Origin: Candidatus Aldehydirespirator sp.
GTDB lineage: Bacteria > Actinomycetota > Acidimicrobiia > Acidimicrobiales > Aldehydirespiratoraceae
Reading direction: 5' to 3'
Assembly (NCBI GenBank): GCA_965204875.1
Contig: OZ242020.1
Location: 104,992 to 168,991, forward strand
Length of the DNA: 64,000 nt
Made by a program: the position numbers and the translations under genes. Each line of letters opens with the position of its first letter. Position 1 is the stretch's first letter. Positions 18,874-40,533 of this stretch are shown here, piece by piece. The notes under the pieces are model-generated. The model was not told the DNA's origin, made no database searches, and was given only the letters and a program-made list of their open reading frames with translations.

Positions 18874-21513
18874 TTAGCCGGAGGGTTCGCTGAAGTTGAT
18901 GATGCCGACTGTGGCGGGTGTCTGGTCCCGGTCATCATCGGCGCCGGGGGCGTTGTCCCGCAAGCGGATCAGGAACAGGACACTGCTCTTGTCGCCCGTC
19001 TCAGTCTCGTCGGTGTCGTTCATCCAGGTTGAGAAGGTGAGACTGCCGTCCGCGCCGGTGTGGCGGGTGTGGCGGTACTGGTCCCAGTTGGGAGAAGACT
19101 GGACGGCTGAGGGCCAAACTTGGAAATCGTTTGACCCCCCCTCCCTCTTAACCCTGTTCGCGTGTTTCTTGCCGGGTTCGGGGAAGTAGATGCGTTGGAG
19201 CTCAAACGTGGCGCGGCTGGTGCCGTCGGCGCCGGCTGTGGTGTCAGAGTTGCCTGCTCTGAGTTGCACCGTGATGGCCACTTCGTCACCGTAATCGGCC
19301 TCAACGGGGGCGTTCTTGTTCTTTTTTGTGTCATCCCCCTTCTTGAACGACTTCTGCAGATCCGCGCCCTCCGACTTCACGGTGATGCTGTCAGCAGCCG
19401 TTCCAGAGGGAACGGTCACGGTCGGCGCGGACCCAGAAGTGATGCGGTCGCCCTCTGACACATGCACGTAGAACACATGCAACCGCTTGTTGTCCAGCAC
19501 CTTCCTGGTGTCCAGGTTGATGATCGCCGTAGAGGCCGGACCGTTGAACTCCTCGAGCACGCGGATCACGATCGTCTTCTTATCACCGGCAGTGCTCGGG
19601 TTCGGGTCCGCCGGCGCAGTGACAGGGAACGAGACCATGCCCGTACCGTCGGTCTTCAGCGTATATTCAGCATCGATATCATAATCACTAACGGTCTCGC
19701 ATTCAGCATCACCACATTGAGGATCGAGTCGGGTATAGCCGATGTACTCGGTGACCTCATGCATCTTATTCCGACGGGGACTATAACGCATCGCGGTAGC
19801 ATGTCCATCCACATCAAATTGCCAGGAATGCAGATTGACAGGGCTGGCACCGTCGACACCGAACGCGGCGCGCTTCAGCTTGTCACCGTCGTTCTCGTCG
19901 GTGTGCAACAACTGCACCGTGAACTGCGACCAATCACCGAACTTCATCTCAAAATAATGGGCACTCTCGCTGTCCGTAGCCTTCGTGTCCGCAACCTTGT
20001 CATCATCAGCCGTAATACGCAACGACTCCGCCGCCACCTGACTCAACGGCAAAGTCGTGGTCGTGGTAGTCGTAGTGGTCGTAGTCGTGGTAGTCGTAGT
20101 CGTCGTCGTGGTAGTCGTAGTCGTCGTGGTAGCCGGGGTGGTAGTCGTAGTCGTAGTAGTCGTGGTAGCCGGGGTGGTAGTCGTAGTAGTGGTAGCCGGG
20201 GTGGTAGTCGTGGCAGTCGTAGTAGTTGTCGCGACCGGGGCCGAACCACCACCGCCACCGCCTGCAGGGGCGGCGGGAACAACCGCGGCCGCGGCCGGCA
20301 CCGTGACAGCATCAGGATCACCGGCGATGCGCAACTCGAAACCATTCACCTCGCCGTTGTAACGGGTGCCGCGGTCGCCGGTCCAGACCCACACCGTCAC
20401 ACCCCGACCAATGGTCGACGCGCTCAACTCGTCCAGTTTGACATCGCCGTCGGCGCCGGTCACCGGGTCACGCGCATCGATCGCGCACGCCGTGGAGGTG
20501 CGGTTAACGCTGCGCACGAGAGCGTTGCACCCGCCCCGCAGATCAAACGCCCGATAGCGGCGCTGCGAACTCACATAGAACCCATCCACCGGCGCCCCCG
20601 ACACCGGCCTGAACGTCGCGTCGCGCACCGACACCACCACCACACCACCGTCGGCCTGCGCCGTCACACCCGCCGGACGCACCCCCGTGTGCGCCAGCGT
20701 GCGCTTGATGAACGACGCCATATTTTTGCGCGGCACCGGACCCTCAGGATCAAACCTCCTCGCATCCCCGGCGCTGCCCGTCGTGATACCAAGCTCATAG
20801 GCGTAACTCGCCGCAACACGCGCATCCCCCGCAGGCACATCTGCGAAATGATCCAGCGTCCCACCCGAACCCAGGATCAGCTCACCCGCCATCGCGCCGT
20901 CCTGATGGAACAGGCCGGGGCTGGCATGGCGCAGGAACCCGATCAGAGCCACCGCCATCTCGGCCCGCGTGATGCTCGCATCGGGCCTGAACGCCATCCC
21001 CGAGCCGGCCAAAATGTCGTTGCGAGCCAGCGCCAGGATCGCGTTGCGGCGCTCCTCGTCGAGATCGGCGACATCGTTGAAGTCGGCGGCGCCCGAGCCG
21101 CCTGTCAGATCCACCCCGGCGACCCCAGCAGCCCTGTGCAAGAACAACGCCATCTGCGAACGCGACACCTCAGACCCGGCATCGAACCGCTCGGCCGTCC
21201 TGCCCCTGGTGATCCCGTAATACGCGATGCAGTTGATCGCATCCTCAGCAACCAACCCCTCGACATCCACAAACCCAGCATCCTCCGACGCGTCACCAAA
21301 ACACGCAGAAAACACCGGCAACGCATCAGCCTCCGCGCGGTCGTCCCCCACAGGCGCAGCCCCGACCGGCGCAGCCACCACAACCCCACCAACCAGACCA
21401 GCCACCAACAACACACACCACAACAAACCACCACCACGACACCGGCGGCGGCGGCCGGCTACAACATCAGCAGCCCCCCCCCCCCGGGGCGAAGTACGAA
21501 CCATCAGAGACAT
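18874..21513 (-). CDS. SLH-domain surface (S-layer-like) protein with poly-Thr linker, paralog 1
   Basis: The conserved start MSLMV lies behind GGAGAGG. It is followed by an Arg-rich n-region and a hydrophobic signal, then three SLH-like repeats (FVDVEGLVAEDAINCIAYYGITRG..F.., FNDVADLDEERRNAILALARNDILAG..FRPDASITRAEMAV, and others). A poly-Thr/Pro/Ala linker of about 60 aa, a variable middle and a conserved C-terminus complete the protein. Confidence 0.8.
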   Translation of the reverse strand: MSLMVRTSPRGGGAADVVAGRRRRCRGGGLLWCVLLVAGLVGGVVVAAPVGAAPVGDDRAEADALPVFSACFGDASEDAGFVDVEGLVAEDAINCIAYYGITRGRTAERFDAGSEVSRSQMALFLHRAAGVAGVDLTGGSGAADFNDVADLDEERRNAILALARNDILAGSGMAFRPDASITRAEMAVALIGFLRHASPGLFHQDGAMAGELILGSGGTLDHFADVPAGDARVAASYAYELGITTGSAGDARRFDPEGPVPRKNMASFIKRTLAHTGVRPAGVTAQADGGVVVVSVRDATFRPVSGAPVDGFYVSSQRRYRAFDLRGGCNALVRSVNRTSTACAIDARDPVTGADGDVKLDELSASTIGRGVTVWVWTGDRGTRYNGEVNGFELRIAGDPDAVTVPAAAAVVPAAPAGGGGGGSAPVATTTTTATTTTPATTTTTTTPATTTTTTTTTTPATTTTTTTTTTTTTTTTTTTTTTTTTTLPLSQVAAESLRITADDDKVADTKATDSESAHYFEMKFGDWSQFTVQLLHTDENDGDKLKRAAFGVDGASPVNLHSWQFDVDGHATAMRYSPRRNKMHEVTEYIGYTRLDPQCGDAECETVSDYDIDAEYTLKTDGTGMVSFPVTAPADPNPSTAGDKKTIVIRVLEEFNGPASTAIINLDTRKVLDNKRLHVFYVHVSEGDRITSGSAPTVTVPSGTAADSITVKSEGADLQKSFKKGDDTKKNKNAPVEADYGDEVAITVQLRAGNSDTTAGADGTSRATFELQRIYFPEPGKKHANRVKREGGSNDFQVWPSAVQSSPNWDQYRHTRHTGADGSLTFSTWMNDTDETETGDKSSVLFLIRLRDNAPGADDDRDQTPATVGIINFSEPSG

Positions 21514-21837: not shown

Positions 21838-24381
21838 TTAGCCGGAGGGTTCGCTGAGCCTCACGATGCCGCTCGTGACCGGAGTGTTGTTGAGGCTGTT
21901 GGCGGCGTTGGGAGCGTTGGTGCTTGAGCGGATCAGGAACACGACACTGCCTGTGTCACCGGCGGCGGTGTTGGGGTCGTCCATCCAAACCGAGAAGGTG
22001 AGACTGCCGTCAGCGCCAGTGTAACGGGTTCGCCGCCACTGATGCCAATCAGTGGACTGCTGGATAGACTCGGGTCTAACCTCCAAATTGCTTCCTCCAC
22101 TCCTTTTGATCCGATTCACGTGACCGGCCGACGGAAAGTAGCCGCGGTGAATATTGAACGCAGCGCGGCTCGTGCCATCCGCTCCAACGGTGGTGTCTGC
22201 ACCGTCAGCGTCCTTGAGTTGAACCGTGACAGTCACCTCATCACCATAATCGGCCTCCACGAACACCTTGCTGCTGTTACCGGACGTGAACGACTTGTCC
22301 GTCTTCGCACCCTTGGACGTCACAGTGATGCTCGCGGCCGCCTCGCCCGCGGGAACTGTCGTGGTCACCGCAGAGCCAGAAGTCGTACGAGCCCCCTCCG
22401 TCACAAGCACAACAACCACATGCAACCGCTTGTTCGGCAGACCCGTGAACGCGGGAGAAGCCGGACCGTTGACCTCCTCGACAATATGGAGCACCAGCGT
22501 AGCCCTGTCACCCGCAGCGCTTGGGTTCGGATCCGCCGGCGCTGTAACAGCGAACGAAGCCATCCCCGTGCCATCGGTCTTCAGAGTATGCTGAGCAACG
22601 TTATTCGGAGTTTCAGCGCAGGGGTCGCCGCCCCGAAAACCATCCACATAAGCATGGTCATTAGCGACAACTTTAGAAACAGCCTCAGAAATGCTGGTAC
22701 TACACGGAGAAAGGCCAACTCCACGACCCGTCCCGTTGACCTGCCGAACATCGACCAGCACCGGGTTCGTGCCGTCCACACCGAACGCGGCGCGCTTCAC
22801 CCTGTCACCATCGTTCTCATCGGTGTACAACAACTGCACCGTGAACTGCGACCAATCACCGAACTTCATCGCATAATAGGAAACCTTATTTTGATCAATG
22901 AGCCTGGAACCCGCAACAGTCTCATCATCAGGCGTGATGCTCAACGACTCCGCCGCCACCTGACCCAACGGCATAGTCGTAGTAGTCGTCGTCGTCGTCG
23001 TGGTGGTAGTGGTCGTAGTCGTCGTCGTCGTAGTCGTCGTCGTCGTAGTCGTCGTAGCAGTGGGCGTAGTCGTAGTCGTGGTGGTGGTGGTTGCCGGGGC
23101 GGAACCACCGCCGCCGCCTGCAGGAGCGGCGGGAACAACCGCGGTCGCGGCCGGCACCGTGACAGCCCCAGCCTCCCCAGCGATGCGCAACTCGAAACCG
23201 TCCACACTGCTGTCGTTGTAAGAATCGCCGCGGTCGCCGGACCACACCCACACCGTCACACCACGACCAATCGTCGCAGCGGTCAACTCGTCCAGCCTCA
23301 CATCACCGCCGGCACCGGTCACAGGATCACGCGCGTCGATCGCGCACACCGTCGAAGTGCGGTTCACGCTTCTGACGATCGCGTTGCACCCGCCCCGCAG
23401 ATCAAACGCCCGATAGCGGCGCTGCGAACTCACATAGAACCCATCAACCAACGCACCGGCCACCGGCGCGAACACCGCGTCACGCACCGACACAACCACC
23501 GTGTTGCCGTCAGACTGCGCCGTCACCCCCGCCGGGCGCACCTTCGTGTGCGCCAGCGTGCGCGTGATGAACGACGCCATATTCTTGCGCAGAACGGGAT
23601 CACCAGGCGAGAACAGGCTCGCGCCCGCCGCGCTGCCCCTGGTGATACCAAGCTCATACGCGTAGGAGACCGCCGTGTCCACACCCTCAGGCAGACCGCG
23701 ACGCGCGTCAGCGAAATGATCCAGCGTCGCACCCGAACCCAGGATCAGCTCACCGGCCATAGCGCCGCTCCGATGGAACAGTCCGGGGCTGGCATGGCGC
23801 AGGAACCCGACCAGTGCCACCGCCATCTCGGCCCGCGTGATGCTCGCATCGGGCCTGAACGCCATCCCCGACCCGGCCAAGATGTCATTGCGGGCCAACG
23901 CCATGATCGCGTTGCGGCGCTCCTCGTCCAAATCCGCGATGTCAGCGAAGTCGGCGGCACCCGAGCCGCCTGTCAAATCCAACCCCGCCATCCCAGCAGC
24001 CCTGTGCAAGAACAGCGCCATCTGCGAACGCGTCACCTCAGACCCGGCATCGAACCGCTCAACCGTCCTGCCCCTGGTGATCCCATAGTACGCCAGGCAG
24101 TTGATCGCAGCCTCAGCAACCAACCCCTCAGTGTCCACGAACCCCGCGTCACGCGTGGCATCACCCACACACGCCGAAAACACCGGCAACGCATCGGCCT
24201 CCGCGCCGCTGCTGCCCACAGGCGCAGCCCCAACCGGCGCAGCCACCACAACAGAACCCACCAAACCAACCACCAACAACGCAGACCACCATAAGCGAGG
24301 CTTACCCCCGCCACGGCGGCGGCCAGCTACAACATCAACCAGCCCCCCCCCCGCGGGTGAAGTACGAACCATCAGAGACAT
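21838..24381 (-). CDS. SLH-domain surface protein with poly-Thr linker, paralog 2
   Basis: The architecture and N-terminal half match paralog 1 (MSLMVRTSPAGGG...). The central region of about 200 aa has diverged. The C-terminus is conserved (...YTGADGSLTFS.WMDD...VVFLIRSSTNAP...SEPSG). Confidence 0.8.
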   Translation of the reverse strand: MSLMVRTSPAGGGLVDVVAGRRRGGGKPRLWWSALLVVGLVGSVVVAAPVGAAPVGSSGAEADALPVFSACVGDATRDAGFVDTEGLVAEAAINCLAYYGITRGRTVERFDAGSEVTRSQMALFLHRAAGMAGLDLTGGSGAADFADIADLDEERRNAIMALARNDILAGSGMAFRPDASITRAEMAVALVGFLRHASPGLFHRSGAMAGELILGSGATLDHFADARRGLPEGVDTAVSYAYELGITRGSAAGASLFSPGDPVLRKNMASFITRTLAHTKVRPAGVTAQSDGNTVVVSVRDAVFAPVAGALVDGFYVSSQRRYRAFDLRGGCNAIVRSVNRTSTVCAIDARDPVTGAGGDVRLDELTAATIGRGVTVWVWSGDRGDSYNDSSVDGFELRIAGEAGAVTVPAATAVVPAAPAGGGGGSAPATTTTTTTTTPTATTTTTTTTTTTTTTTTTTTTTTTTTTTMPLGQVAAESLSITPDDETVAGSRLIDQNKVSYYAMKFGDWSQFTVQLLYTDENDGDRVKRAAFGVDGTNPVLVDVRQVNGTGRGVGLSPCSTSISEAVSKVVANDHAYVDGFRGGDPCAETPNNVAQHTLKTDGTGMASFAVTAPADPNPSAAGDRATLVLHIVEEVNGPASPAFTGLPNKRLHVVVVLVTEGARTTSGSAVTTTVPAGEAAASITVTSKGAKTDKSFTSGNSSKVFVEADYGDEVTVTVQLKDADGADTTVGADGTSRAAFNIHRGYFPSAGHVNRIKRSGGSNLEVRPESIQQSTDWHQWRRTRYTGADGSLTFSVWMDDPNTAAGDTGSVVFLIRSSTNAPNAANSLNNTPVTSGIVRLSEPSG

Positions 24382-26197: not shown

Positions 26198-27220
26198 TCA
26201 CATCGCTGCGACTCGAAGGGCCCGCTCCATCACATGGCGGCTGCCGAGCAGTCGGCGCAGCTCGTTCTCCAGGCCGGCTATCGGGTACAGGTTCTGCGGC
26301 GCGCGGGCGTCCTTGTGAGGCTGGCTGGCGTAGCGCGGCAGCAGTGCCGACACAGCGTCGGCGCGGCACACCGCGTCCGCGAGCGCACTCGGCGACGCCA
26401 TCTCGCAGCGCACGATGCCCGACCATGGATGCGCCGCGACAGCCGGCAGGCGCAGGTACCAAGACCAGCGAGCGAAGCCCGAGCCGCCGATGAAGAACAG
26501 CGGGGTCCGCTGGCCGGCCCGCAGCGTCGAGATCACGCGCTGCTCGCGGTCCGGCAGGTACTGGACGTGCTGGGTCTTCACGTACCCGACGCCGGCCGGT
26601 GCGCCGCGGCCCCGGATCGGCCCGTCGAAGACCACCAGTTCCGCTCCCTCCGGCGGGATGATCTGCGCAGCGGTTGGATCGAGCACCGCATCGCCTTCAT
26701 CCGTTCCCTCCGGCGGGACGATCCGCGTCTCCAGCGCGGTCATCTGGTCATGGATCGCCCGGTAGAGGTCGTCGGGCCCGTCGGCCGCGCAGGGAACCAG
26801 CTCGTAGGTGCCGTGGCGGGTGGCGATGGGGACGGTGGCATGGGACGCCCTGGCATAGAGCGCCCGGAACACCCTCGACCCCACCACCCGAGCCGCGTCC
26901 GGGTCACAGCGGACCGCACCGGCGGCGACCGACGCGCAGACGCCGGGGCGGACCCCGTCCCCGTCGGTGATCCAGATGCGGGCGTCTATGCGCCGCACGC
27001 CGTCCACGAACACGACGGACTCCACAGGCTCAGCGTGAGGCGCGGGGTCGACCGCCGACCACCGGCCCTCGGCGCGCTCGGAGTACAGGACGACATCGCC
27101 GGTCGCCTCCTCAAGGTGCTCCGAGTCGGCGGCCAAGCCGTACTCGGGCGCCCAGCTCTCAACCGTGAACCTCAACCGCGCCTCCGGATCACGCGTGCCA
27201 CCCTCTCGCAGCGCAGGCAC
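26198..27220 (-). CDS. nurA: NurA-like nuclease (putative)
   Basis: The protein is 340 aa and sits last in the herA-sbcD-sbcC operon, as nurA does in archaea. It has an N-terminal VFVDGVRRID segment that resembles the catalytic Asp motif of NurA. The assignment rests mainly on context. Confidence 0.5.
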   Translation of the reverse strand: MPALREGGTRDPEARLRFTVESWAPEYGLAADSEHLEEATGDVVLYSERAEGRWSAVDPAPHAEPVESVVFVDGVRRIDARIWITDGDGVRPGVCASVAAGAVRCDPDAARVVGSRVFRALYARASHATVPIATRHGTYELVPCAADGPDDLYRAIHDQMTALETRIVPPEGTDEGDAVLDPTAAQIIPPEGAELVVFDGPIRGRGAPAGVGYVKTQHVQYLPDREQRVISTLRAGQRTPLFFIGGSGFARWSWYLRLPAVAAHPWSGIVRCEMASPSALADAVCRADAVSALLPRYASQPHKDARAPQNLYPIAGLENELRRLLGSRHVMERALRVAAM

Positions 27221-27354
27221 CCCGGCCGTTCAACGGCGGCCGGCCCTCGTGCCGCCGCTTGCGCCACCCTCCCGCAGCGCAGGCGCCCCAGTCAACCGCT
27301 GTGAACCGCACCTCCCGGGCACGGCTCGGCCAAGACACAGCCCTCTTCCCCCCA

Positions 27355-30201
27355 CTATGCCTCCACGCGCTCGATCATCGAGGTGTCAGGCCCCTTGGAC
27401 ACCACGAAGCGCACGGGCATCTCGTCGCCCAGCTCGCTGATGTGGGTGACGATGCACACCATCCGGCCGGACTCGGCCAGGTCGCCGATGGCGCCGGCCA
27501 CGACGCCCAGGGCGTCGGGGTCGAGCGTGCCGAAGCCCTCGTCGAGGAACAGCGAACCGAGCGCCGGACTCCCCGCGGAGGCCGTCTCGCCCCCGCCGTC
27601 GCCGAGCGCCAGAGCCAGAGCGAGGCTCGCCAGGAACGTCTCGCCGCCCGAGAGGGTCTTGGCCCCGCGCACCTCGTCCGCGTTCTGGTGGTCGCAGATC
27701 CCGAAGTCGGGGTCGTCGGGCACAAAGGAGTACTTGCCGTCCGACAGCTCCAGCAGCCGCTCGTTGGCCCGCTCGATCAAGTCCCCGACCGCGCCCACAA
27801 GGAGCCACCGCTCGAACCCGTCGGCCCGCAGCAACCGGCCGAGCTCCGCGGCTACCTCTTCGTCGGCGCGCAACTTGCCGACGCGTGCTTCTAGCTGCTG
27901 ACGCCGACGTAGCTCCTCGGTAGCAGTCTTGTGAGACATCTCGGCATTTGTGACGGCCACCGCCATCTCGCTCACGAAGCGACTCGAGTCGTCGCCGGGC
28001 TCGAAGTGGGCCGAGCACAGGGTTCGTGCGGACGCGATCAGCTCACGCTCGCGGCCCTGCGCGTCGCGCGCCCGGCGCTCGGCCGCCTCTGACTGCCTGG
28101 CGACCGCGGCCAGCGTCTCGATGGCCCAGGCGGCCAGGTCCTCCCAGTCCTGCAGCAACGACGCCTCAGGTGCCGGTGGCGACAGTGGAGCCAACTCGTC
28201 GCGCCTGGCGCCGTAGTCGCGCCGCGCTCGCTGTTCGTCGGCCTCTAGAGCCTCTAGCGCCTTGACCGCTTGCTGCTTGCGCTCATGGGCAGTCTGTTCT
28301 GCGGCCTCGGCCTTCTGCCGGGCGGCGGCCAGAGCCCCGGCCCGCTCGATGTCCGCCTCAAGCTGGGCTACCTCGGGCTCTCCGGCCAAACGCTCTTCGA
28401 GTTCCTGGCACTGCCGCTGGCAGCTGTCCCGATCTGCCTCGACCTTCGCCTTCTCGACCTCGGCATCCTGCTCCGCCCTAAGGCAGTCCCGCGTCTCGGC
28501 AGCATCTCGCAGGTCGCGCTCGGCCTGCTCCGCGGCCTGCCGCGCAGCGCTGCACCGCTCCGCTTCGGCAGCAAGCTCGTCGGCCTGTGATTCGAGACGG
28601 TCCAGCTCGACCCCGTCCGGCTGGCCCTGAAGCTCGTGCTGCAGCGTCTTCTCTCGCGCCGATAGCTGCTGCAACTGTGACGAGAGGCGTGCCGAGGCGC
28701 TGCGCAACTCAACAAGGGCGTCGGCCGCGCGTTCAACTTCGGACTGGGCGCGGCGGTGGTCAACATCGAGCCTGGCAAGCTCAGCGTCCGGGTCGTGTTC
28801 GGGAAGTTCCACGACCGTCCGGCGGCACACGGGGCACGGTTCACCCTCTCGCAACTGCGTAACCAGTCCCTCGGCCTGCTTGAGCGCACGAGCGAGATCG
28901 AGCCGCTCCACTGCCTTCGACAAGACCCCCTTGGCCGCCGACTGCTCGGCCTGCGCCGACTGCTCGGCCGCAACAGCACGTTCATGCTCAACTGCACGAT
29001 CGGCCACCTGCGGTGCCAGCTCTTCCAGTTCGGCCCGCAACGCGCGCACCCGCTCGATCTGGCCCCGATCCGGACCGCCGGCTGCGGAGTCGAGCGCCTG
29101 CTCAGCCGCACGACGCGCCGCAGCCGCTGCGCCCTCAGCCTCAGCCAGTCGCTCACGCACGACTTCGGCGGCCGCGACCGCTTCCCCGGCGACACGCTCC
29201 GCCTCGCCGGCGCGCTCCTGCAGGGAATCCAGCCGGCCCCGCTCTGCGTCGAGACGCCCGTGATCATCGAGAAGCCTCCGACACTGCCCCACGCTGGGAC
29301 CCTCGTCTGCCTCACGGCGCGCCCCGGTCGCGGCATCGCGCGCCTCCTCGTATTTCGCCGCGGCGCCGTCGCTTGCCTCACGAGCCGCCTGAAGCTCGGC
29401 GTCGAGCCGTTGCACGGCGCCTGGCACCGCCTTGCTACGGGCGAGCACCTTCCCAGCGGCGGCGAGGCGCGACATCTCGCCCTCGGCCGCCTTGCGATCA
29501 GCAACAGCCACCTCGAGCTGCTCCATCCGGGCTTCGAGCTCTGCCTGGGCGGCGCGTGCGGCCTCGGCAAGCCCGGCAAGCTCGGTGACCCGTTCAGCGG
29601 TCGGCGCCTCACGCTCGAGTTCGGGCCGCAGCGCCGCGATCTGATCCCGGGCCGTGGCGGCCCGCCTGCGAGCCTCGGCACCCACGCGGTCGTAGATGCC
29701 CAGGCCGATGAGGTGTTTCAGCAGTTCCTGGCGGTCGGCGGCCTTGTCGTGCAGGAACTCCGCGAAACGGCCCTGCGGCAGCACCACGGTCTTGGTGAAG
29801 CGGTCGAAGTCGAGGCCCAGGAGCCCCTCAACGGCGGGGCCCATCTCGCGGGCGCTGCCGGCCAGGGTCTGCTCGCCTCGCTCCAGGCGGGCCTCCCTGG
29901 TGGAGGCGCCGGCGGCGGTCCGGCGAACCACGCGCGTCGCCGTGTACGCCTCGCCGCCCGCCTCGAAGTCGAGGGAGACCCGCGCCTCCGCCGCCAGCTG
30001 GTTGATGACCGGTGCCACGGCCCGGGCGTCGTCGTAGCGGGCCACGGTTCCGAACAGGGCGAAGGTGATGCCGTCGATGATCGTGGTCTTGCCGGATCCG
30101 GTAGGCCCCACGAGGGCTGCCTGCTCCACATCGCTGAAGTCCACCGCGGTGTCGGAGCGGAAGCTGCCGAAGCCCCTCAGGCTCAACTTCAAGGGCCTCA
30201 T
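27355..30201 (-). CDS. sbcC: SbcC / Rad50-like SMC ATPase
   Basis: Walker A GPTGSGKTT, long coiled coils, a central zinc hook CPVC, signature LSGGETFLASLALALAL, Walker B LFLDEGFGTLD. Confidence 0.9.
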   Translation of the reverse strand: MRPLKLSLRGFGSFRSDTAVDFSDVEQAALVGPTGSGKTTIIDGITFALFGTVARYDDARAVAPVINQLAAEARVSLDFEAGGEAYTATRVVRRTAAGASTREARLERGEQTLAGSAREMGPAVEGLLGLDFDRFTKTVVLPQGRFAEFLHDKAADRQELLKHLIGLGIYDRVGAEARRRAATARDQIAALRPELEREAPTAERVTELAGLAEAARAAQAELEARMEQLEVAVADRKAAEGEMSRLAAAGKVLARSKAVPGAVQRLDAELQAAREASDGAAAKYEEARDAATGARREADEGPSVGQCRRLLDDHGRLDAERGRLDSLQERAGEAERVAGEAVAAAEVVRERLAEAEGAAAAARRAAEQALDSAAGGPDRGQIERVRALRAELEELAPQVADRAVEHERAVAAEQSAQAEQSAAKGVLSKAVERLDLARALKQAEGLVTQLREGEPCPVCRRTVVELPEHDPDAELARLDVDHRRAQSEVERAADALVELRSASARLSSQLQQLSAREKTLQHELQGQPDGVELDRLESQADELAAEAERCSAARQAAEQAERDLRDAAETRDCLRAEQDAEVEKAKVEADRDSCQRQCQELEERLAGEPEVAQLEADIERAGALAAARQKAEAAEQTAHERKQQAVKALEALEADEQRARRDYGARRDELAPLSPPAPEASLLQDWEDLAAWAIETLAAVARQSEAAERRARDAQGRERELIASARTLCSAHFEPGDDSSRFVSEMAVAVTNAEMSHKTATEELRRRQQLEARVGKLRADEEVAAELGRLLRADGFERWLLVGAVGDLIERANERLLELSDGKYSFVPDDPDFGICDHQNADEVRGAKTLSGGETFLASLALALALGDGGGETASAGSPALGSLFLDEGFGTLDPDALGVVAGAIGDLAESGRMVCIVTHISELGDEMPVRFVVSKGPDTSMIERVEA

Positions 30202-30349
30202 CGCGGCGCCTCCGCGCCCCCGGCACGCCTGCGAGCGAGTGCCGCAGGAACGCTCCGAACCGGGTCAGGCCTCATCGCGGCGCCTCCGCGCCCCCGGCAC
30301 GCCTGCGAGCGAGTGCCGCAGGAACGCTCCGAACCGGGTCGGGCCTCAT
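30196..30349 (-). repeat. Two tandem 74-bp units between sbcD and sbcC
   Basis: cat (ATG) recurs at 30199, 30273 and 30347. The two units are nearly identical, differing only at about 30267/30341 (a/g). Confidence 0.9.
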
Positions 30350-31527
30350 CGCAGCGTCTCTGCCCGATCGGCCTCGTGCTGTTCCTCCAGCAGCGCGACG
30401 AACAGCGACCTCACCCGCCCGTCCGCGATGTTGCGCTCGGCCAGGTACTCGTCGAAGAGCTCGACGCTGCCGCGCCCGGATCGCGCGGACCGGCGGCGCC
30501 GAGGTTGCGAGTCGTCCTCGACGCGCACGTCCACCACGCTCTCACCGCGTGCGCCCAGCGCCTCGCGCACCTCTCCGGCAAGGCCGGCCCGCCGCGGCTC
30601 CCGCACGATCACCCTCAGCCACGGGTCTCCCTCAAGCTCCGCGGCGGCCCCGGCGACCTCCGCCAGCGTGCCCGACAGCGTGCGCAGCGACCGGCCGCCC
30701 CCCAGCCGCAGCGGCGTCACCGCCGGGGGCAGGCCGGCCTCAATCTCGACCAGGTTCACCTGCTTGTGGTGCTGCTCCTCGCCGAAGTCGAGCTGCAGGG
30801 GCGACCCGCAATAGTGGATCTGGCCAGGCCCGGCGATCCTCTGGGGCCGGTGCACGTGGCCGAGTGCCACATATCCCGCCGTGGCCGGAAAGACCTGGGC
30901 GCTCAGCGCGTACTCGTCGACGAAGTGCACGGCCCGCTCGCCGCCCCCGAGCCTGCCGCCGTGCACGAAGGCGTGCGCCATCAACACGTTGACCGTGCCG
31001 GGCTCGAAGCCCCCGGCCAGCACCTCGATCAGCAGCCGCATGCGCTCGGCATAGGCCTGCGCGTGCTCGTAGGCCTCGGAGTCCATCAGGTCCCTGGCGC
31101 GGACGATGCCGCGCCGTGACACGAACGGCAGCATGGCCACGCAGGCGTCCTCGCCCCGGCGCGTCCGCAAGCGCAGCACGCCGCCGTCGCCGGGCCTGCT
31201 CGGCTCGGCAACCACATGCACGCGCCCGGCGGCCTCGAACACGGGCGCCACGGCTGCGAGCTTGCGACCGCTGTCGTGGTTGCCGGCGATCACCGCCACC
31301 TGTGCGCCTGTGCCGGCCAGGTCCAGCAGCGCCCGGTACACGATCCTCTCCGCCTCGGCCGACGGCGCGGAGGTCTCGAACACGTCGCCCGCCACGAGCA
31401 CCAGGTCTACCGAGTGCTCACCGGCCAGGCGGGCGATCTCGGCCAGCACCGCCTGATGCTCGCCGGCGCGGCTTCGCCCCCGGATCGTCTTGCCGACGTG
31501 CCAGTCGCTGGTGTGCAGCAGTTTCAT
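30346..31527 (-). CDS. sbcD: SbcD / Mre11-like nuclease
   Basis: MKLLHTSDWHVGK...LVAGDVFE...IAGNHD phosphoesterase motifs. I prefer the start at 31527 (MKLLHTSDWH) over the listed 31608. Confidence 0.9.
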   Translation of the reverse strand: MKLLHTSDWHVGKTIRGRSRAGEHQAVLAEIARLAGEHSVDLVLVAGDVFETSAPSAEAERIVYRALLDLAGTGAQVAVIAGNHDSGRKLAAVAPVFEAAGRVHVVAEPSRPGDGGVLRLRTRRGEDACVAMLPFVSRRGIVRARDLMDSEAYEHAQAYAERMRLLIEVLAGGFEPGTVNVLMAHAFVHGGRLGGGERAVHFVDEYALSAQVFPATAGYVALGHVHRPQRIAGPGQIHYCGSPLQLDFGEEQHHKQVNLVEIEAGLPPAVTPLRLGGGRSLRTLSGTLAEVAGAAAELEGDPWLRVIVREPRRAGLAGEVREALGARGESVVDVRVEDDSQPRRRRSARSGRGSVELFDEYLAERNIADGRVRSLFVALLEEQHEADRAETLR

Positions 31528-31582
31528 CGCCGCACCCGCCGCAGCCGGGCAACCACGCCGGCGCGCCGCGCCTGTTGCAGCC

Positions 31583-33346
31583 TCACGCCAGGCCCTCGAA
31601 AGGGTCATCGGGCTGTGCGGGGCCGCCGGCGCCGGGAGGCAGGGAGGGATCGACCTCGGCTGAGCGGGTGGCCCAGGCCGGGAACGGGAACTCCACCAGC
31701 AGCGGCACCGGCAGGCGGGGCTGGGACACGTACATCGAGCCGGGCTTGAGGATCGTGGCCCGCTGGCGCTGCACGCCGGGCAGGAACCCGTACTGCTCGC
31801 GGCCCGCCTCGGCGCTGTCGAGGCGCCCGACCACGCGCACGGCGCTGTTGGCCACCACCCGCCGCTCCACCTCGCTGGCCGTCTGCTGGGCGCCGATCAG
31901 GATGATCCCGAGGCTGCGTCCCCGCTCGGCCACGTCCAGCAGGATCTCCTTGATGGGGCTGCTGCCGTCGCGGGGCGCGTACTTGTTGAGCTCGTCGAGC
32001 ACCACGAACTGCAGCGGCTTGGAGGTTCCGCTGCTCTCCTTGGCCTCGAAGGCCTGGCGCAGCACGACGCCGACCACGAAACGCTTGGCCCGGTCGTGGA
32101 GCTGATGTATGTCCACCACGGTGAGCTGGTTGGAGTCCAGGTCGATCGCGTGGGCCGGGGCGTCCGCCACGTCGGCGCGTATCAGATGGTGGAGGTGGCG
32201 CACCGAGGCGTGCAACCGGCGAACGAAGGCGTTGATCGTGCCGGGGCCGATGGCCCGCCCGCTCCAGCGCGGGTCCGGCGCCTGGTCGGGATCGTCGGGG
32301 ATCAGCTGCCGCTCGATGGCGTTCACAAGCTCGCCGAAGCGCCGGATCGTGCTCTTGCCGATGCGCACCGACCCGTCCGCCGCCGCGGTCCTATCGGCGC
32401 ACCGGGCCAGCTGCGCCGCCACCGACTGCACGACGATGGTGTACTGCTGGCGCTCGTCCTGGGCGTCCGCGAACAGGAAGGGCAGCAGCTGCTGCGAGCA
32501 GAAGTCGGCGATGCTCCAGAAGTAGGGGCGCACCCCGTAGTGCCGGGCGCCGGTGGCGGGGGTGGCGTTGGGGTCGTTGGGGCGGGGCGGCGCCAGGACG
32601 CCGACCGAGGTGAAGGGAGCGGGCTGGAGCCCCAGCGCCGCGTAGCGCTGTCGCTGGTCGGGTTCGAGGCGGGCGTTGGGGTGGTCCAGGAAGAGCAGGT
32701 CCTCGCCCTTGACGTTGAAGATCAGGCCCTTGGTGTGCATGGCCTCGCCCGCGAGCACACCCGAGTTGAACAGCGCGTACAGCAGGAACGTGGCGTAGCT
32801 GGTCTTGGTGGCGACGCCGGAGATGCCGCTGATGTTGATGTGGGCGCCCTTGGTGCCGTCGATGAAGTCGAGGTCGAGGTAGATGGGCTCGTCGTAGCGG
32901 CTCAGGCCCGCAGGAAGGCGGCGATCCGGCTCGACCTCATCGAAGTCCAGGGCCGCGTCGCGCTCCTCGCCGGCGGCGAGGCGCACCTCCGAACCGGGCA
33001 GCGGCGGCACGAACGTCTCCGGCACCACCCTGGTGAGCTGCACCTGCGCGGCCTCGCTCACCTCGGCCGGCAGCACGCCGTCGGCGATCAGGAAGACGTC
33101 GCTGTCGAAGCGGGCGCCCTCGTGGCGGGCCCGCACCTGGCTGACGACGCCGTAGAGGCAGATCCGGTCATCGTTGGGCAGCACCCGGTCTATCGCCACC
33201 ACGTCATCGAGCTGCAGGTGCGAGCCGGGTGCCACGGCCACCCAGAACTCGAGCGGCGTGGCGTCGTCGGTGCCGAGCACCCGGCCCACCACCTCGCTCA
33301 CGGCAACCTCTCCATCAATGTGCTCTTCATCAAGATGAAGGTACAA
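31583..33346 (-). CDS. herA: HerA-like (DUF87, FtsK/HerA superfamily) ATPase
   Basis: An N-terminal barrel-like region, a deviant Walker A GISGVATKTS, Walker B FVVLDELNKY, and a C-terminal LGIILIGAQQTASEV segment typical of HerA. Confidence 0.75.
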   Translation of the reverse strand: MYLHLDEEHIDGEVAVSEVVGRVLGTDDATPLEFWVAVAPGSHLQLDDVVAIDRVLPNDDRICLYGVVSQVRARHEGARFDSDVFLIADGVLPAEVSEAAQVQLTRVVPETFVPPLPGSEVRLAAGEERDAALDFDEVEPDRRLPAGLSRYDEPIYLDLDFIDGTKGAHINISGISGVATKTSYATFLLYALFNSGVLAGEAMHTKGLIFNVKGEDLLFLDHPNARLEPDQRQRYAALGLQPAPFTSVGVLAPPRPNDPNATPATGARHYGVRPYFWSIADFCSQQLLPFLFADAQDERQQYTIVVQSVAAQLARCADRTAAADGSVRIGKSTIRRFGELVNAIERQLIPDDPDQAPDPRWSGRAIGPGTINAFVRRLHASVRHLHHLIRADVADAPAHAIDLDSNQLTVVDIHQLHDRAKRFVVGVVLRQAFEAKESSGTSKPLQFVVLDELNKYAPRDGSSPIKEILLDVAERGRSLGIILIGAQQTASEVERRVVANSAVRVVGRLDSAEAGREQYGFLPGVQRQRATILKPGSMYVSQPRLPVPLLVEFPFPAWATRSAEVDPSLPPGAGGPAQPDDPFEGLA

Positions 33347-34858: not shown

Positions 34859-34913
34859 TCCACCGAATGTGATCCACCGAATGTAATCCACCGAATGTAA
34901 TCCACCGAATGTA
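34859..34913. repeat. Four tandem copies of the 14-bp unit tccaccgaatgtNa between murF and the amidase gene
   Basis: Read directly from the sequence: gtccaccgaatgtga tccaccgaatgtaa tccaccgaatgtaa tccaccgaatgta. The array ends about 25 nt upstream of the amidase start. Confidence 0.9.
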
Positions 34914-38030: not shown

Positions 38031-40478
38031 GTGATCTCTGAGGCTCTGGCCGGCAAGCGCATCGCCATCACGGGCGCGACCGGCTTTCTGGGCACGGCGC
38101 TCACCGAGCGGCTGCTGCGCTGCGTGCCCGGCTGCGAGCTGGTGCTGATCGTGCGTCCAGGCCGCCGGGGCGCGGCCGAGCGGGTGCGCCGCGACGTGCT
38201 GCGCAACGACGCCTTCGGCCGCTTGCGCGCCGAGCTGTCGCAGCAGGGCGCTCAGGAGTCCTATGAGGAGATGACGGCACGGCGGGTCACGGCCGTCGCG
38301 GGCGATGTCAGCGTCGACGGGCTGGGGCTCGACGACGCCGGCCTGGCCGCGCTGGCCGCCTGCGACACGGTGATACACGCTGCGGCCACCGTCAACTTCG
38401 ACTCGGCCCTCGACGACGCGGTCGAGGTCAACCTGCTCGGCCCGACACGGGTGGCGGCGGCGCTCGCCGAGGCCGGCGCCAGAGCACACCTGATCTCGGT
38501 ATCGACCTGCTACGTGGCCGGCAGCCGCCGGGGCGCGGCCCCCGAGCAGCTCGTCGACGACTCGCCGTTCTTCACCGACGTGGACTGGCGCGACGAGGCG
38601 GCCGGCGCACGCCAGGCCCGCGCCGACGCCGAGCAGGCCAGCCGGAGCCCACAGCGCCTCGCCGCGCTGTCCGCTGAGGCCCGGCGAGAGCTCGGCGCGG
38701 CCGGCATCCCGGCGATTGCCCACAAGGTGGAGAGCCTGAGGCGGCGCTGGGTGGAGGAGCAGATGAGCAGCGCCGGCCGCGCCAGGGCCGCCAGCCTGGG
38801 CTTCCCCGACGCCTACGCCTTCACCAAGGCCCTCGGTGAGCGCGCCTTGGCCGAGACCCGCGGCGACACGCCGGTGAGCATCGTGCGGCCCTCCATCATC
38901 GAGTCCGCCCTGGCCGAGCCCTACCCGGGATGGATCCGCGGCTTCCGGATGGCCGAGCCGGTGATCGCCGCCTACGCCCGGGGCCTGCTCAAGGAGTTCC
39001 CCGGCGTGCCCGAGGGGATCATCGACGTGATCCCGGTGGACCTCGTCGTGGCCACCATCGCAGCGGTGGCGGCACGCGGCCCCGGCGGTCACCACTCCGG
39101 CAGTCACACCCCCCAGGGTCACGACTCCGGCAGTCACAGCCCCGGCGGCCACGACTCCGGCGGTCACGGCCCGGACGTCGTCCAGATCGCCAGCGGGGCC
39201 ATCAACCCGCTCAAGTACGGCCAACTCTTCGACCTCGTGAGCGGCTGGTTCACCGACCACCCCGTCTACGACGAGCACAACCAGCCGATCCGGGTGCCTC
39301 GCTGGTCGTTCCCCGGACGGGGGCGCGTGGCCCGGCAGCTCCAGCGGGCCCAGCGCTGCCTGGAGGCGGCCGACCGGGTGCTCTCGGTGCTGCCCCTGCG
39401 GGGCCGCCACGCGATGATGAGCGCCGGCCTCGACGAGCGCCGCCAGCAACTGGAGCGTGCCAGCGACTACGTGGAGCTGTACGGCGCCTACGCCGAGTGC
39501 GAGGCGATCTACGGGCTCGACCGCCTGATGGAGCTGTGGGAGTCCCTCGACGACATCGACCGGTCGACGTTCTGCTTCGACCCGCGCCGCGTGGACTGGG
39601 ACCGCTACGTGCACGAGATCCACCTGCCGTCGATGGTGGAGCAGGCCCGCCTGAAGATGGCGCCGGGCACGCGGCCCCCCGGGGGCGAGACCCGCTCGGG
39701 CAGGCTCCGGCGGCAGGTGCTCGCCCCCGAGCGCCACCTGGCCGTGTTCGACCTCGAGAACACGCTGATCGCGTCGAACGTGGTGGCCAGCTACGCCTGG
39801 CTCGCCACCCGCGAGCTGGACGACGCAGCCAGGGTGCGTTTCGCGGCCCGCACGCTGGCCGAGGCGCCCAGGCTGCTGGCGCTGGACCGCCGCGACCGCA
39901 GCGACTTCCTGCGCTACTTCTACCGCCGCTTCGCCGGCGCCGGAGTCGACCGCATGGACGCCGAGTGCGCCGAGATGCTCAGCGACCTGATCCTGGCCAG
40001 GTCCTTTCCCCAGGGCATCCGCCGGGTGCGCCGGCATCGAGCCGCCGGGCACACGACCCTGCTCATCACCGGCGCGCTGGACTTCGTGGTGGCGCCCCTG
40101 CGACCGCTCTTCGACCACATCGTGGCCGCGGAGATGGGAACCCGCGACGGCGCCTACGACGGCAGACTGCGCAGCGTGCCCCCCACCGGCGAGGCCCGCT
40201 ACCAGACTCTGGTCGATTTCGCCGCCGAGCGCGGCCTCGACCTCCGGGAGTCCGTCGCATACGCCGACAGCACGTCGGATCTGCCGATGCTCGAGGCCGT
40301 GGGCTTCCCGGTGGCGGTCAACCCCGAGACCAAGCTCGCAGCCCTGGCACGGCGGCGCGGCTGGCTCATCGAGCACTGGTCGACCAGCGCCGGAGCGCCG
40401 GCCAAGCTGCTGCCGATGGCGCCGCGGGACCGCCATCGCCACCGGCACGGGCGCGCCACGCTCACCAGGCTCGCCTGA
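38031..40478 (+). CDS. Fatty acyl-CoA/thioester reductase (NAD_binding_4-type) fused to a HAD-IB hydrolase domain
   Basis: N-terminal ITGATGFLGTALTERLL Rossmann motif and a FAR-like layout. The C-terminal part carries AVFDLENTLI (HAD motif I with Glu in place of the second Asp) and ADSTSDLPMLE (motif IV). Confidence 0.65.
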   Translation: MISEALAGKRIAITGATGFLGTALTERLLRCVPGCELVLIVRPGRRGAAERVRRDVLRNDAFGRLRAELSQQGAQESYEEMTARRVTAVAGDVSVDGLGLDDAGLAALAACDTVIHAAATVNFDSALDDAVEVNLLGPTRVAAALAEAGARAHLISVSTCYVAGSRRGAAPEQLVDDSPFFTDVDWRDEAAGARQARADAEQASRSPQRLAALSAEARRELGAAGIPAIAHKVESLRRRWVEEQMSSAGRARAASLGFPDAYAFTKALGERALAETRGDTPVSIVRPSIIESALAEPYPGWIRGFRMAEPVIAAYARGLLKEFPGVPEGIIDVIPVDLVVATIAAVAARGPGGHHSGSHTPQGHDSGSHSPGGHDSGGHGPDVVQIASGAINPLKYGQLFDLVSGWFTDHPVYDEHNQPIRVPRWSFPGRGRVARQLQRAQRCLEAADRVLSVLPLRGRHAMMSAGLDERRQQLERASDYVELYGAYAECEAIYGLDRLMELWESLDDIDRSTFCFDPRRVDWDRYVHEIHLPSMVEQARLKMAPGTRPPGGETRSGRLRRQVLAPERHLAVFDLENTLIASNVVASYAWLATRELDDAARVRFAARTLAEAPRLLALDRRDRSDFLRYFYRRFAGAGVDRMDAECAEMLSDLILARSFPQGIRRVRRHRAAGHTTLLITGALDFVVAPLRPLFDHIVAAEMGTRDGAYDGRLRSVPPTGEARYQTLVDFAAERGLDLRESVAYADSTSDLPMLEAVGFPVAVNPETKLAALARRRGWLIEHWSTSAGAPAKLLPMAPRDRHRHRHGRATLTRLA
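39087..39176 (+). repeat. In-frame 3 x 30-bp His/Gly/Ser-rich repeat inside the reductase gene
   Basis: GHHSGSHTPQ GHDSGSHSPG GHDSGGHGPD. Confidence 0.85.
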
Positions 40479-40533
40479 TGCACCGCAACCTCAACCATCG
40501 CGGGCGCGCCACGCTCGCCAGGCCCGCCTGATG
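40448..40533 (+). repeat. 53-bp tandem duplication of the reductase/LarA-like gene junction
   Basis: cgggcgcgccacgctc(a/g)ccaggc(t/c)cgcctgatg occurs twice, at 40448..40480 and 40501..40533. Confidence 0.9.

What the first reader, a model, noticed from the sequence alone, without database searches (positions are those of the whole stretch)
30196..30349. Two identical-length 25-codon mini-ORFs chained by ATGA overlaps between sbcD and sbcC
The sbcD stop overlaps an ATG (CGATGAGGCC). That ATG opens MRPDPVRSVPAALARRRAGGAEAPR*, whose TGA again overlaps an ATG (ATGA). The unit repeats once more, and its TGA overlaps the real sbcC start (ATGAGGCCCTTG, MRPLKL). The mini-ORFs are at 30272..30349 and 30198..30275. 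Each 74-bp unit begins like sbcC (MRP) and ends like sbcD (..R*). It looks like a tandem duplication of the coupled junction that preserves translational coupling at every step. The same design recurs at 17547..17699 and 40448..40533, so this is a genome-level pattern rather than a single accident.
Basis: seen in the sequence. Interest (0 to 1): 0.6.

Follow-up and report, generated by a model that had tools for sequence, protein, structure and literature searches.

The report
Tandem mini-ORF relay between sbcD and sbcC
Two copies of a 74-base unit sit exactly where the repair genes sbcD and sbcC normally overlap, each copy rebuilding the stop/start overlap, so ribosomes could pass from one gene to the other through two 25-codon ORFs; it resembles the MIRU repeats of mycobacteria but appears to be made locally.

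Summary
On the minus strand the sbcD stop overlaps an ATG (ATGA). Two 74-bp units follow, differing by one synonymous base. Each unit is a 25-codon ORF, and the last TGA overlaps the sbcC start. The three closest relatives, and 45 of 47 more distant sbcD/sbcC pairs, have a direct overlap with no units, so the 148 bp is a lineage-specific insertion. A second assembly contig carries the identical array.

The unit's first 9 nt match the sbcC start and its last 23 nt match the sbcD end. The middle 42 nt has no detectable source. Each unit carries GGAGG 7 nt before the next ATG.

No other copy of the unit was found in the window, in about 0.65 Mb of DNA from related genomes, or, as an exact 22-mer from it, in two public contig collections. 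It is therefore not a dispersed, MIRU-type element.

Locus-specific junction arrays occur at four or more other operon junctions in this window and at orthologous or other junctions in relatives. All five arrays found by a scan blind to frame keep the relay (p about 0.01).

Best reading: local junction duplication, kept only when frame-preserving, giving serial translational coupling. Translation itself is inferred, not shown.

The parts
30346..31527 (-). sbcD (393 aa, nuclease subunit). Its TGA stop at 30346..30348 overlaps the ATG of relay ORF 1.
   Evidence: The start at 31527 matches the gene call on L001 and the homologues.
30276..30349 (-). Unit 1 (74 bp). Composition: ATGAGGCCC (as the sbcC start), a 42-nt segment of unknown origin, then 23 nt resembling the sbcD 3' end.
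   Evidence: (family D6).
30272..30349 (-). Relay ORF 1, 25 codons (MRPDPVRSVPAALARRRAGGAEAPR*), with an ATGA overlap at both ends.
30283..30287 (-). GGAGG (Shine-Dalgarno-like) in unit 1, 7 nt before the ATG of relay ORF 2.
   Evidence: Read directly.
30202..30275 (-). Unit 2 (74 bp). It differs from unit 1 by one base: CCC to CCT, synonymous in the relay frame.
30198..30275 (-). Relay ORF 2, 25 codons, same peptide as relay ORF 1. Its TGA overlaps the sbcC ATG.
30209..30213 (-). GGAGG in unit 2, 7 nt before the sbcC ATG. It takes the place of the GGGAGG that relatives L002 and L004 carry inside the sbcD 3' end; the window's sbcD end has decayed to GGGCAGAG.
27355..30201 (-). sbcC (948 aa, ATPase subunit), starting MRPLKL.
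31524..31586 (-). 20-codon relay ORF linking the upstream gene's stop (GTGA) to the sbcD start (ATGA). It contains no repeat. Relatives have relay ORFs of 10, 10 and 32 codons at the same junction; in L003 the relay starts 10 nt after the stop and ends at an alternative GTG start (2555), not the called start (2501).
17551..17699 (-). Same design, locus 2. The OB-fold (ChsH2-like) gene's stop (GTGA) leads to a 17-codon ORF, then GTGA, then a 32-codon ORF made of two in-frame units, then ATGA at the thiolase-like gene. Three units of 50, 45 and 50 bp carry GGAGG-like motifs.
   Evidence: D2. Relatives L005 and L006 have a plain 4-nt overlap.
16407..16501 (-). 72-bp junction duplication between the thiolase-like gene's stop (TAG) and the next thiolase's ATG at 16414. 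A 29-codon relay ORF starts 2 nt after the stop and ends 5 nt inside the next gene.
   Evidence: (D11). Relatives have a 4-nt overlap or a 2-nt gap.
40476..40533 (+). Same design, locus 3. The reductase/HAD fusion gene's stop (TGATG) leads to a 17-codon ORF, then TGATG at the LarA-like gene. The 53-bp unit is an 83% copy of the upstream gene's own tail.
   Evidence: D9. Relatives L008 and L010 have no unit; L007 and L009 have one 47-bp unit.
42147..42235 (+). 28-codon relay ORF from the LarA-like gene's stop (GTGA) to the next gene's start (TGATG), with the core GCCGACGT..GTGA present at both ends. The spacer is about 20 nt in L007, L008 and L010.

Best explanation
This is a real, lineage-specific tandem array of 2 x 74 bp, inserted exactly at the ancestral ATGA overlap of sbcD and sbcC in an uncultured Acidimicrobiales bacterium.

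Origin (inferred). The array arose by local duplication of the junction, through slippage or unequal exchange between the repeated junction cores. An old first event produced a unit whose middle has since decayed beyond recognition. A recent second event copied that unit.

Structure (shown). Each unit rebuilds a complete hand-over point: GGAGG, a 7-nt spacer, ATG, 25 codons, then a TGA overlapping the next ATG.

Mechanism (inferred). A ribosome finishing sbcD can restart on relay ORF 1, then on relay ORF 2, then on sbcC. This would be serial translational coupling, by reinitiation and/or by unfolding the small GGCGC-GGAG-GCGCC hairpin that holds the SD.

Role of the peptides (inferred). The peptides themselves are probably meaningless. 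What is conserved is the frame and the overlaps.

Why such arrays persist (inferred). Junction-spanning duplications leave both genes intact. The ones that survive appear to be those whose length keeps the relay unbroken (unit length of 2 modulo 3).

Side effect (inferred). The downstream gene's ribosome-binding site is no longer embedded in the upstream gene's last codons.
For: Array and overlaps:
- Searches show the array and the chained overlaps.

Empty site in relatives:
- L002, L003 and L004 (77% aa identity in SbcD) have a direct ATGA or GTGA overlap.
- In a survey of 47 metagenomic sbcD/sbcC junctions, 29 overlap by 4 nt, 7 by 1 nt and 7 by more. Two more are GTGA by eye. Only two have gaps.

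Independent assembly:
- Contig L001 carries the identical array but has a different context beyond window 31840.

Local origin:
- The unit ends match the flanks: 9 of 9 nt at the 5' end and 24 of 31 at the 3' end.
- Units from different loci are unrelated to each other and to anything else in about 0.71 Mb of clade DNA.
- A 22-mer from the unit is absent from genome contigs and metagenome contigs.
- The locus 3 unit is an 83% copy of the adjacent gene tail over 52 nt.

Recurrence:
- Five junctions in this window carry such arrays.
- Relatives carry them too: L006 (71 bp), L007 and L009 (47 bp), L009 (period 42) and L090 at sbcD/sbcC (26 bp).

Constraint on frame rather than sequence:
- The L007 and L009 units have the same length, but 26 of 42 interior positions are identical (sequences), while the surrounding DNA is 91% identical. 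Their peptides differ.
- All 5 arrays found by a scan blind to frame keep the relay. Simulated junction duplications keep it with probability 0.425, giving p = 0.014.

SD shift:
- Units carry GGAGG, whereas the window's sbcD end has lost the GGGAGG that L002 and L004 have.

Mini-ORFs do not look like genes:
- GC3 in the relay frame is 0.75, against 0.80-0.95 for genes in the window.
Against: - There are no expression or ribosome data. Coupling is inferred from geometry alone.
- The middle 42 nt of the unit has no detectable similarity to the sbcD or sbcC flanks in the window or in relatives. A simple one-step duplication of flanking DNA is therefore not shown for the first unit.
- The frame statistic rests on only 5 events.
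- With boundaries and length fixed, shuffled spacers often still form a relay. Across 21 gene-caller junctions, relay tiling is not clearly enriched: 5 observed against 2.8 expected.
- sbcC has its own good SD and could initiate independently.
- Only 64 kb of this genome could be searched for other copies.
Confidence: 0.62

Rival explanations
1. Neutral spacer. The duplication is real but functionally inert. sbcC is translated by ordinary initiation at its own GGAGG and ATG, the mini-ORFs are translated weakly or not at all, and the unbroken ATGA chain is just what a copied junction looks like.
For: - The second unit's overlaps follow automatically from copying.
- A good SD sits 7 nt before sbcC.
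- With the ends and length fixed, shuffled interiors usually still give a relay, and relay tiling is not clearly enriched over 21 junctions.
- The region has no unusual RNA structure.
Against: - All 5 independently detected arrays keep the frame (p = 0.014).
- The L007 and L009 units keep their length while their sequence decays.
- The first restart codon has no SD, so it makes sense only as a reinitiation site.
Confidence: 0.2
2. MIRU-like mobile element. A small non-autonomous element carrying its own mini-ORF inserted at the ATGA start/stop overlap and then duplicated, as proposed for mycobacterial interspersed repetitive units.
For: - The architecture is the same as described for MIRUs: units of 40-100 bp, in tandem, within operons, with ORFs overlapping the flanking genes (PMC3184786; PMC12548453, citing Supply et al. 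1997; PMC4213456 for the 77-bp and 53-bp units between senX3 and regX3).
- The middle 42 nt of the unit is an orphan sequence.
- Filled and empty sites exist among relatives.
Against: - No second locus carries this unit in the window, in about 0.65 Mb of related DNA, or, as an exact 22-mer, in GTDB genomes or JGI metagenomes.
- Units at different junctions are mutually unrelated.
- The flanking direct repeats are 11 nt exact and about 31 nt at 78%, and they match local gene ends. They are not a tetranucleotide.
- No terminal inverted repeats were seen on inspection of the unit ends.
Confidence: 0.1
3. Assembly or polishing artefact: a stutter that duplicated a 74-bp segment.
For: The genome is a metagenome-assembled contig and no reads could be inspected. 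L001 has only about 3x coverage, judging by its name.
Against: - The array is identical in a second contig with a different upstream context.
- The units differ by one base.
- Analogous arrays with 8-26% divergence between copies occur in this window.
- Analogous arrays also occur in assemblies from other projects.
- 148 bp lies well within single long reads.
Confidence: 0.03

Closest known systems
MIRU (mycobacterial interspersed repetitive units), e.g. the 77-bp and 53-bp units between senX3 and regX3
   Same: Tandem units of 40-100 bp lie between two genes of an operon. Each unit holds a short ORF in the genes' orientation, and the ORF's start and stop overlap those of its neighbours (-4 spacing). 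Filled and empty sites occur among relatives, and the structure is thought to preserve translational coupling (PMC12548453, PMC3184786, PMC4213456).
   Different: MIRUs form one sequence family dispersed at about 40-50 loci per genome, have tetranucleotide flanking repeats, and are thought to be mobile. Here every junction has its own unrelated unit whose ends copy the local gene ends. The host is Acidimicrobiales, not Mycobacterium. Similarity to the MIRU consensus could not be tested.
Translational coupling at overlapping stop/start codons (ATGA, GTGA, TGATG)
   Same: Every step of the chain uses the canonical -4 overlap. Locus 3 uses the -1 overlap. SD sequences and a small hairpin are present, as in coupled pairs (PMC12548453).
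   Different: Instead of one hand-over there are three in series, through two ORFs that code for nothing recognisable. Serial relays of this kind are not described in the review apart from MIRUs.
Short upstream ORFs that deliver ribosomes, and the synthetic bicistronic design
   Same: A short ORF whose only role is to end on top of the start codon of the real gene (PMC12548453, its references 75 and 78).
   Different: Here the leader ORF is itself fed by an upstream gene's termination, is duplicated, and arose by junction duplication.
Slipped-strand tandem duplications and VNTRs in bacterial intergenic DNA
   Same: Head-to-tail copies are 99% identical and bounded by direct repeats. Presence or absence varies among genomes that are 90-95% identical at the orthologous FAR/LarA junction.
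   Different: The array lies at a zero-length intergenic site, so the unit must carry stop, start and SD to be tolerated.

Membership tests
MIRU | Units of 40-100 bp, in tandem, between co-oriented genes of an operon | tested here: met
   Two 74-bp units lie between sbcD and sbcC.
MIRU | Each unit contains an ORF whose start and stop overlap those of the adjacent ORFs | tested here: met
   ATGA overlaps occur at 30346..30349, 30272..30275 and 30198..30201.
MIRU | One sequence family dispersed at many loci of the genome | tested here: not met
   Only the two adjacent copies are present in 64 kb. There is no similarity among units from different junctions or to about 0.65 Mb of related DNA. A 22-mer is absent from two public collections. 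Limit: the rest of this genome was not available.
MIRU | Short (tetranucleotide) direct repeats at filled sites, suggesting transposition | tested here: not met
   The repeats are 11 nt exact (GCGATGAGGCC) and 24 of 31 positions overall, and they correspond to the local gene ends.
MIRU | Sequence similarity to the MIRU consensus | not testable with these tools
   No MIRU or Mycobacterium tuberculosis sequence could be fetched.
MIRU | Copy number varies between strains (VNTR behaviour) | tested here: inconclusive
   Both available assemblies have 2 units. At the orthologous FAR/LarA junction, 0 or 1 unit is found among genomes that are 90-95% identical.
Translationally coupled gene pair (termination-reinitiation or unfolding) | Co-oriented ORFs with -4 or -1 stop/start spacing | tested here: met
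Translationally coupled gene pair (termination-reinitiation or unfolding) | Co-transcription with no promoter or terminator in between | tested here: inconclusive
   The consensus scan finds no promoter-like or terminator-like site in 29900..30700. There are no RNA data.
Translationally coupled gene pair (termination-reinitiation or unfolding) | Downstream translation depends on upstream translation | not testable with these tools
   This needs reporters or ribosome profiling.
Local tandem duplication | Head-to-tail copies of high identity, with an empty site in relatives | tested here: met
   The copies are 73 of 74 identical. Relatives have a direct overlap.
Local tandem duplication | The unit sequence derives from the flanking DNA | tested here: inconclusive
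   The 9-nt 5' end and the 23-nt 3' end derive from the flanks. The middle 42 nt does not detectably do so.

The most novel reading that the evidence does not exclude
In this Acidimicrobiales clade, duplication of overlapping gene junctions may be a recurrent, selected route of operon evolution. It would free the downstream gene's ribosome-binding site from the upstream gene's last codons, while a frame-locked relay of throw-away mini-ORFs keeps ribosome hand-over. The slippage-prone unit number (0, 1, 2, 3) would then act as a heritable dial on subunit ratios such as SbcC:SbcD. On this reading it is a locally generated counterpart of MIRUs, and it could hint at how MIRU-like elements begin.
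Probability: 0.15. Interest if true: 0.65.

Novelty: new variant of a known kind. Interest (0 to 1): 0.45.

Why it matters
Overlapping stop/start codons are the commonest form of translational coupling. Little is known about how such junctions evolve or how much insertion they tolerate.

Here a zero-length junction has accepted 148 bp without losing the chain of overlaps. The same solution appears at several operons and in several related genomes, with the sequence free to drift but the frame kept. That amounts to a natural experiment suggesting that ribosome hand-over, rather than sequence, is what selection sees.

It also provides a MIRU-like architecture outside mycobacteria that is evidently made in place. 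This bears on whether MIRU-type repeats need to be mobile at all.

In practice, such arrays are candidate VNTR markers and natural templates for relay (bicistronic) expression designs in high-GC bacteria.

Tried and rejected
- Dispersed or mobile element. I searched the 74-mer in the window with up to 3 mismatches, ran blastn-short of all units against about 0.71 Mb, and scanned GTDB genomes and JGI metagenomes for an exact 22-mer. Only the locus itself was found.
- Shared family among units of different junctions. Only weak hits appeared (z about 4 with mononucleotide shuffles, e.g. CGCAGGCGTGYCGGGGG shared by the sbcD/sbcC unit and the 16.4-kb unit). That motif is not clearly recurrent.
- Source of the middle 42 nt. 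Local alignment to the sbcD 3' and sbcC 5' flanks of the window and of three relatives, on both strands, and to the whole window was not significant.
- An 'RFGAF' stretch. It appears in another frame of the unit and resembles the conserved SbcC N-terminal GFGAF. A profile of 61 SbcC N-termini scored the unit no better than shuffles (2691 of 3000 were at least as good), so I dropped it.
- Structured RNA or known RNA family. There was no Rfam hit, and folding z-scores were -0.7 and +0.4.
- Internal promoter or terminator. None was found by consensus scan.
- A general 'relay tiling' of all intergenic spacers in the clade. It is not clearly enriched: 5 observed against 2.8 expected of 21 junctions. 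I therefore do not claim it.
- A recurring GAACTC or 'LEL' motif in several relay ORFs. This was a post hoc observation and was not supported by the pairwise tests.
Full report
**1. What is there**

The window has 68.8% G+C. Homologues of its genes are labelled Acidimicrobiaceae or Acidimicrobiales MAGs. The closest named relatives are Candidatus Aldehydirespirator and Aldehydirespiratoraceae.

The layout on the minus strand is as follows.
- sbcD spans 30346..31527 (393 aa, Metallophos).
- sbcC spans 27355..30201 (948 aa; AAA_23, SMC_N and SbcC_Walker_B).
- The sbcD stop overlaps an ATG (ATGA, 30346..30349).
- Two 74-bp units follow, at 30276..30349 and 30202..30275.
- Each unit reads as a 25-codon ORF, MRPDPVRSVPAALARRRAGGAEAPR*.
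- Each ORF's TGA overlaps the next ATG, and the last overlap is with the sbcC start (MRPLKL).

Tandem Repeats Finder reports period 74, 2.3 copies and 96% matches. The two units differ at one base, CCC to CCT, which is synonymous.

**2. Is it real?**

A contig from another assembly (L001; ERZ26693861, 17.5 kb) is 100% identical to the window over 7,486 bp, including both units. It has a different context upstream of window position 31840. Other points also argue against an artefact.
- The one-base difference between units is not what stutter would give.
- Arrays at the other loci have copies that are 8-26% diverged.
- Equivalent arrays occur in assemblies from unrelated projects.

An assembly artefact is very unlikely. 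Reads were not available, so it is not formally excluded.

**3. Comparison with relatives**

The nearest SbcD proteins in a 5.8-billion-protein collection are only 77% identical. In three of these genomes sbcD and sbcC overlap directly by 4 nt, for example ...GCAGCC ATGA GGCCCGTGAAG.

I also surveyed 47 more distant sbcD/sbcC junctions from metagenomes.

| Junction state | Count |
|---|---|
| 4-nt overlap | 29 |
| 1-nt overlap | 7 |
| longer overlap | 7 |
| GTGA by eye (not resolved by the script) | 2 |
| gap | 2 |

One of the two gaps (L090) is a 26-nt insert. It forms a 9-codon ORF that begins GTGAGG and ends ATGA on the sbcC start, which is a small version of the same design.

The 148 bp in the window is therefore a lineage-specific insertion into a site that is normally of zero length.

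**4. Anatomy of the unit**

- The first 9 nt (ATGAGGCCC) are the conserved sbcC start, MRP.
- The last 23 nt plus the following ATGAGGCC match the window's sbcD end at 24 of 31 positions. They match the relatives' sbcD ends at 20 of 31 (family D6, 69).
- The sbcD-like part is read in the same frame in both places: ..AEAPR* in the unit and ..AETLR* in sbcD.
- The middle 42 nt shows no significant similarity to either flank, in the window or in relatives, on either strand. It also matches nothing else in the window. A tempting 'RFGAF' match to the SbcC N-terminus failed a profile test.

Each unit carries GGAGG 7 nt before the next ATG (30283..30287 and 30209..30213). The window's sbcD end has GGGCAGAG where L002 and L004 have GGGAGG (L003 has GGGAGC). 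So the last unit now supplies the sbcC ribosome-binding site. The first restart codon has none and makes sense only as a reinitiation site.

Several other tests were negative or argue against a gene.
- The GGAGG sits in the loop of a small predicted hairpin (GGCGC-GGAG-GCGCC). Overall folding is no better than for shuffled sequence.
- There is no Rfam match.
- There is no promoter-like or terminator-like site.
- GC3 in the relay frame is 0.75, below every gene in the window (0.80-0.95). The mini-ORFs do not look like genes under coding selection.

**5. Not a dispersed element**

The unit occurs nowhere else in the window or in about 0.65 Mb of fetched DNA from related genomes. As an exact 22-mer it is absent from 185,579 reference genomes and from the JGI metagenome collection. 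Units from different junctions are unrelated to each other.

**6. A pattern, not an accident**

A repeat scan of the whole window, made without regard to ORFs, gave a clear split.
- Short-range direct repeats inside genes are almost all spaced by multiples of 3 (9, 12, 30, 60, 66, 96, 108, 120 and 141 nt; a few steps of 15 or 17 nt occur in the 9-nt arrays).
- Repeats at gene junctions have other spacings.

The junction repeats in this window are listed below.

| Window locus | Strand | Structure | State in relatives |
|---|---|---|---|
| 17551..17699 | - | Three units of 50, 45 and 50 bp between an OB-fold gene and a thiolase-like gene. ORFs of 17 and 32 codons are chained by GTGA, GTGA and ATGA. 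| Relatives at 88% aa identity have a plain 4-nt overlap. |
| 16407..16501 | - | A 72-bp duplication with a 29-codon relay ORF. | Relatives have a 4-nt overlap or a 2-nt gap. |
| 40476..40533 | + | A 53-bp unit that is an 83% copy of the upstream gene's tail. A 17-codon ORF is chained TGATG to TGATG. | See below. |
| 42147..42235 | + | A 28-codon relay ORF with the junction core at both ends. | The spacer is about 20 nt in three relatives. |

The orthologous junction of the 40.5-kb locus is informative. Four genomes that are 90-95% identical to each other differ there.
- L008 and L010 have the plain TGATG overlap.
- L007 and L009 each have one 47-bp unit with a 15-codon relay ORF.
- The interiors of those two units share 26 of 42 positions, against 91% identity for the surrounding DNA. 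The peptides differ (MAERTRGLELPGRSA and MAAGARGMRLLGGVA), yet length and overlaps are kept.

L009 also has a duplicated 22-nt core (period 42) at the next junction. L006 has a 71-bp unit at an unrelated junction.

**7. Is the relay kept more often than chance?**

A scan looked for a repeated stop/start context between two long, high-GC3 ORFs, regardless of frame. It found five arrays: three in the window, plus L006 and L007. All five keep an unbroken relay.

I then simulated every possible junction-spanning tandem duplication of 30-100 bp on seven empty junctions. The relay was kept in 32-59% of cases (mean 42.5%), so five of five has p = 0.014. This is suggestive, but the sample is small.

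A second control tempers the claim. With spacer length and boundary motifs fixed, shuffled interiors usually still form a relay. Over 21 gene-caller junctions, relay tiling is not clearly enriched (5 observed against 2.8 expected). If selection acts, it acts on length and boundaries. Relay ORFs are not a universal feature of spacers in this clade.

**8. How it most likely works**

Shown:
- The array exists, sits at an ancestrally overlapping junction, and is made of junction-derived ends.
- It rebuilds SD, start and overlapping stop at each step.
- Similar locus-specific arrays recur.

Inferred:
- Origin was by slippage or unequal exchange between repeated cores. An old event created the first unit, whose interior has drifted to saturation. 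This is consistent with the drift seen between L007 and L009. A recent event copied the unit.
- Ribosomes terminating on sbcD restart on the relay ORFs and finally on sbcC. The two proposed mechanisms are ribosome reinitiation (scanning) and RNA unfolding, both reviewed in PMC12548453.
- The peptides have no function.
- Arrays that break the frame are purged.
- A plausible benefit is that the downstream RBS escapes the coding constraint of the upstream C-terminus. The downstream copy often has the better SD (GGAGG against GGCAGAG here; GGGAGG against GGTGAGG in L007).

**9. Closest known**

The closest known system is the MIRUs of mycobacteria. These are tandem units of 40-100 bp within operons, whose ORFs overlap the flanking genes at -4 spacing. 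They are thought to insert at start codons with minimal effect on expression (PMC12548453, citing Supply et al. 1997; PMC3184786). The 77-bp and 53-bp units between senX3 and regX3 are the classic example (PMC4213456).

The present array works like a MIRU. It fails two defining features of the family: it is not a dispersed sequence family, and it lacks tetranucleotide flanking repeats. It also lies in a different class of Actinomycetota. It is best filed as a locally generated variant of the same architectural kind. Full-text searches found no description of junction-duplication relays outside MIRUs.

**10. Verdict**

This is a real and correctly described feature. It is a new variant of a known kind and of moderate interest. 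The translational mechanism and any regulatory role remain to be tested.

Noticed in passing
window 31524..31586 (-): A 20-codon ORF bridges the upstream 587-aa gene's stop (GTGA) to the sbcD start (ATGA). It contains no repeat. Relatives L002 and L004 have 10-codon bridging ORFs and L003 a 32-codon one at the same junction, with unrelated sequences; the L003 ORF starts 10 nt after the stop and ends at an alternative GTG start (2555), not the called start (2501).
   Followed up: partly
window 27172..27357 (-): The 180-nt spacer between the sbcC stop and the next gene's TTG start (27175) is tiled by three chained ORFs of 41, 14 and 6 codons (TAGTG, TTGA, GTGA, TTGA). It contains a 27-nt direct repeat at 27197 and 27263 (period 66, 93% identical). 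Shuffled spacers give such tiling in 0.3% of trials.
   Followed up: partly
window 34859..34913: A 14-nt unit (TCCACCGAATGTAA) is repeated 3.9 times at 97% identity in the spacer between two minus-strand genes.
   Followed up: no
window 12947..12986: An exact 20-nt tandem duplication (ACTTGCGCGCTACTGTGAAC x2) lies in a spacer between divergent genes. It may be an operator or promoter element.
   Followed up: no
window 2482..2600, 20033..20250, 22952..23110, 61050..61113; also 21382..21436 and 62236..62297: Long 9-nt-period coding arrays (GTCGTAGTA type) and AACCACCACC arrays occur in several large ORFs. The same kind of array is present in relative L005.
   Followed up: no
window 57842..57948: A 36-nt direct repeat (97% identical, period 71) flanks an AT-richer 35-nt filler.
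   Followed up: no
window 48229..48288: A 26-nt repeat (period 34) straddles the stop of 46861..48261(+). No relay ORF exists here. The in-frame continuation past the TAA ends on a GTGA at the next gene's candidate start.
   Followed up: partly
L001 1..1361 versus window beyond 31840: The second assembly contig is 100% identical to the window over 7.5 kb, then diverges completely inside the gene upstream of sbcD. This is either a strain-level rearrangement or a chimeric contig.
   Followed up: no
L005 13947..14082: A 68-bp unit is duplicated in tandem (99% identical) at or near a gene junction in a relative's complete genome.
   Followed up: partly
L090 about 2183..2210 (JGI Ga0310345_10046539): A distant relative (60% SbcD identity) has a 26-nt insert at the sbcD/sbcC junction. 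It forms a 9-codon ORF from GTGAGG to ATGA.
   Followed up: partly
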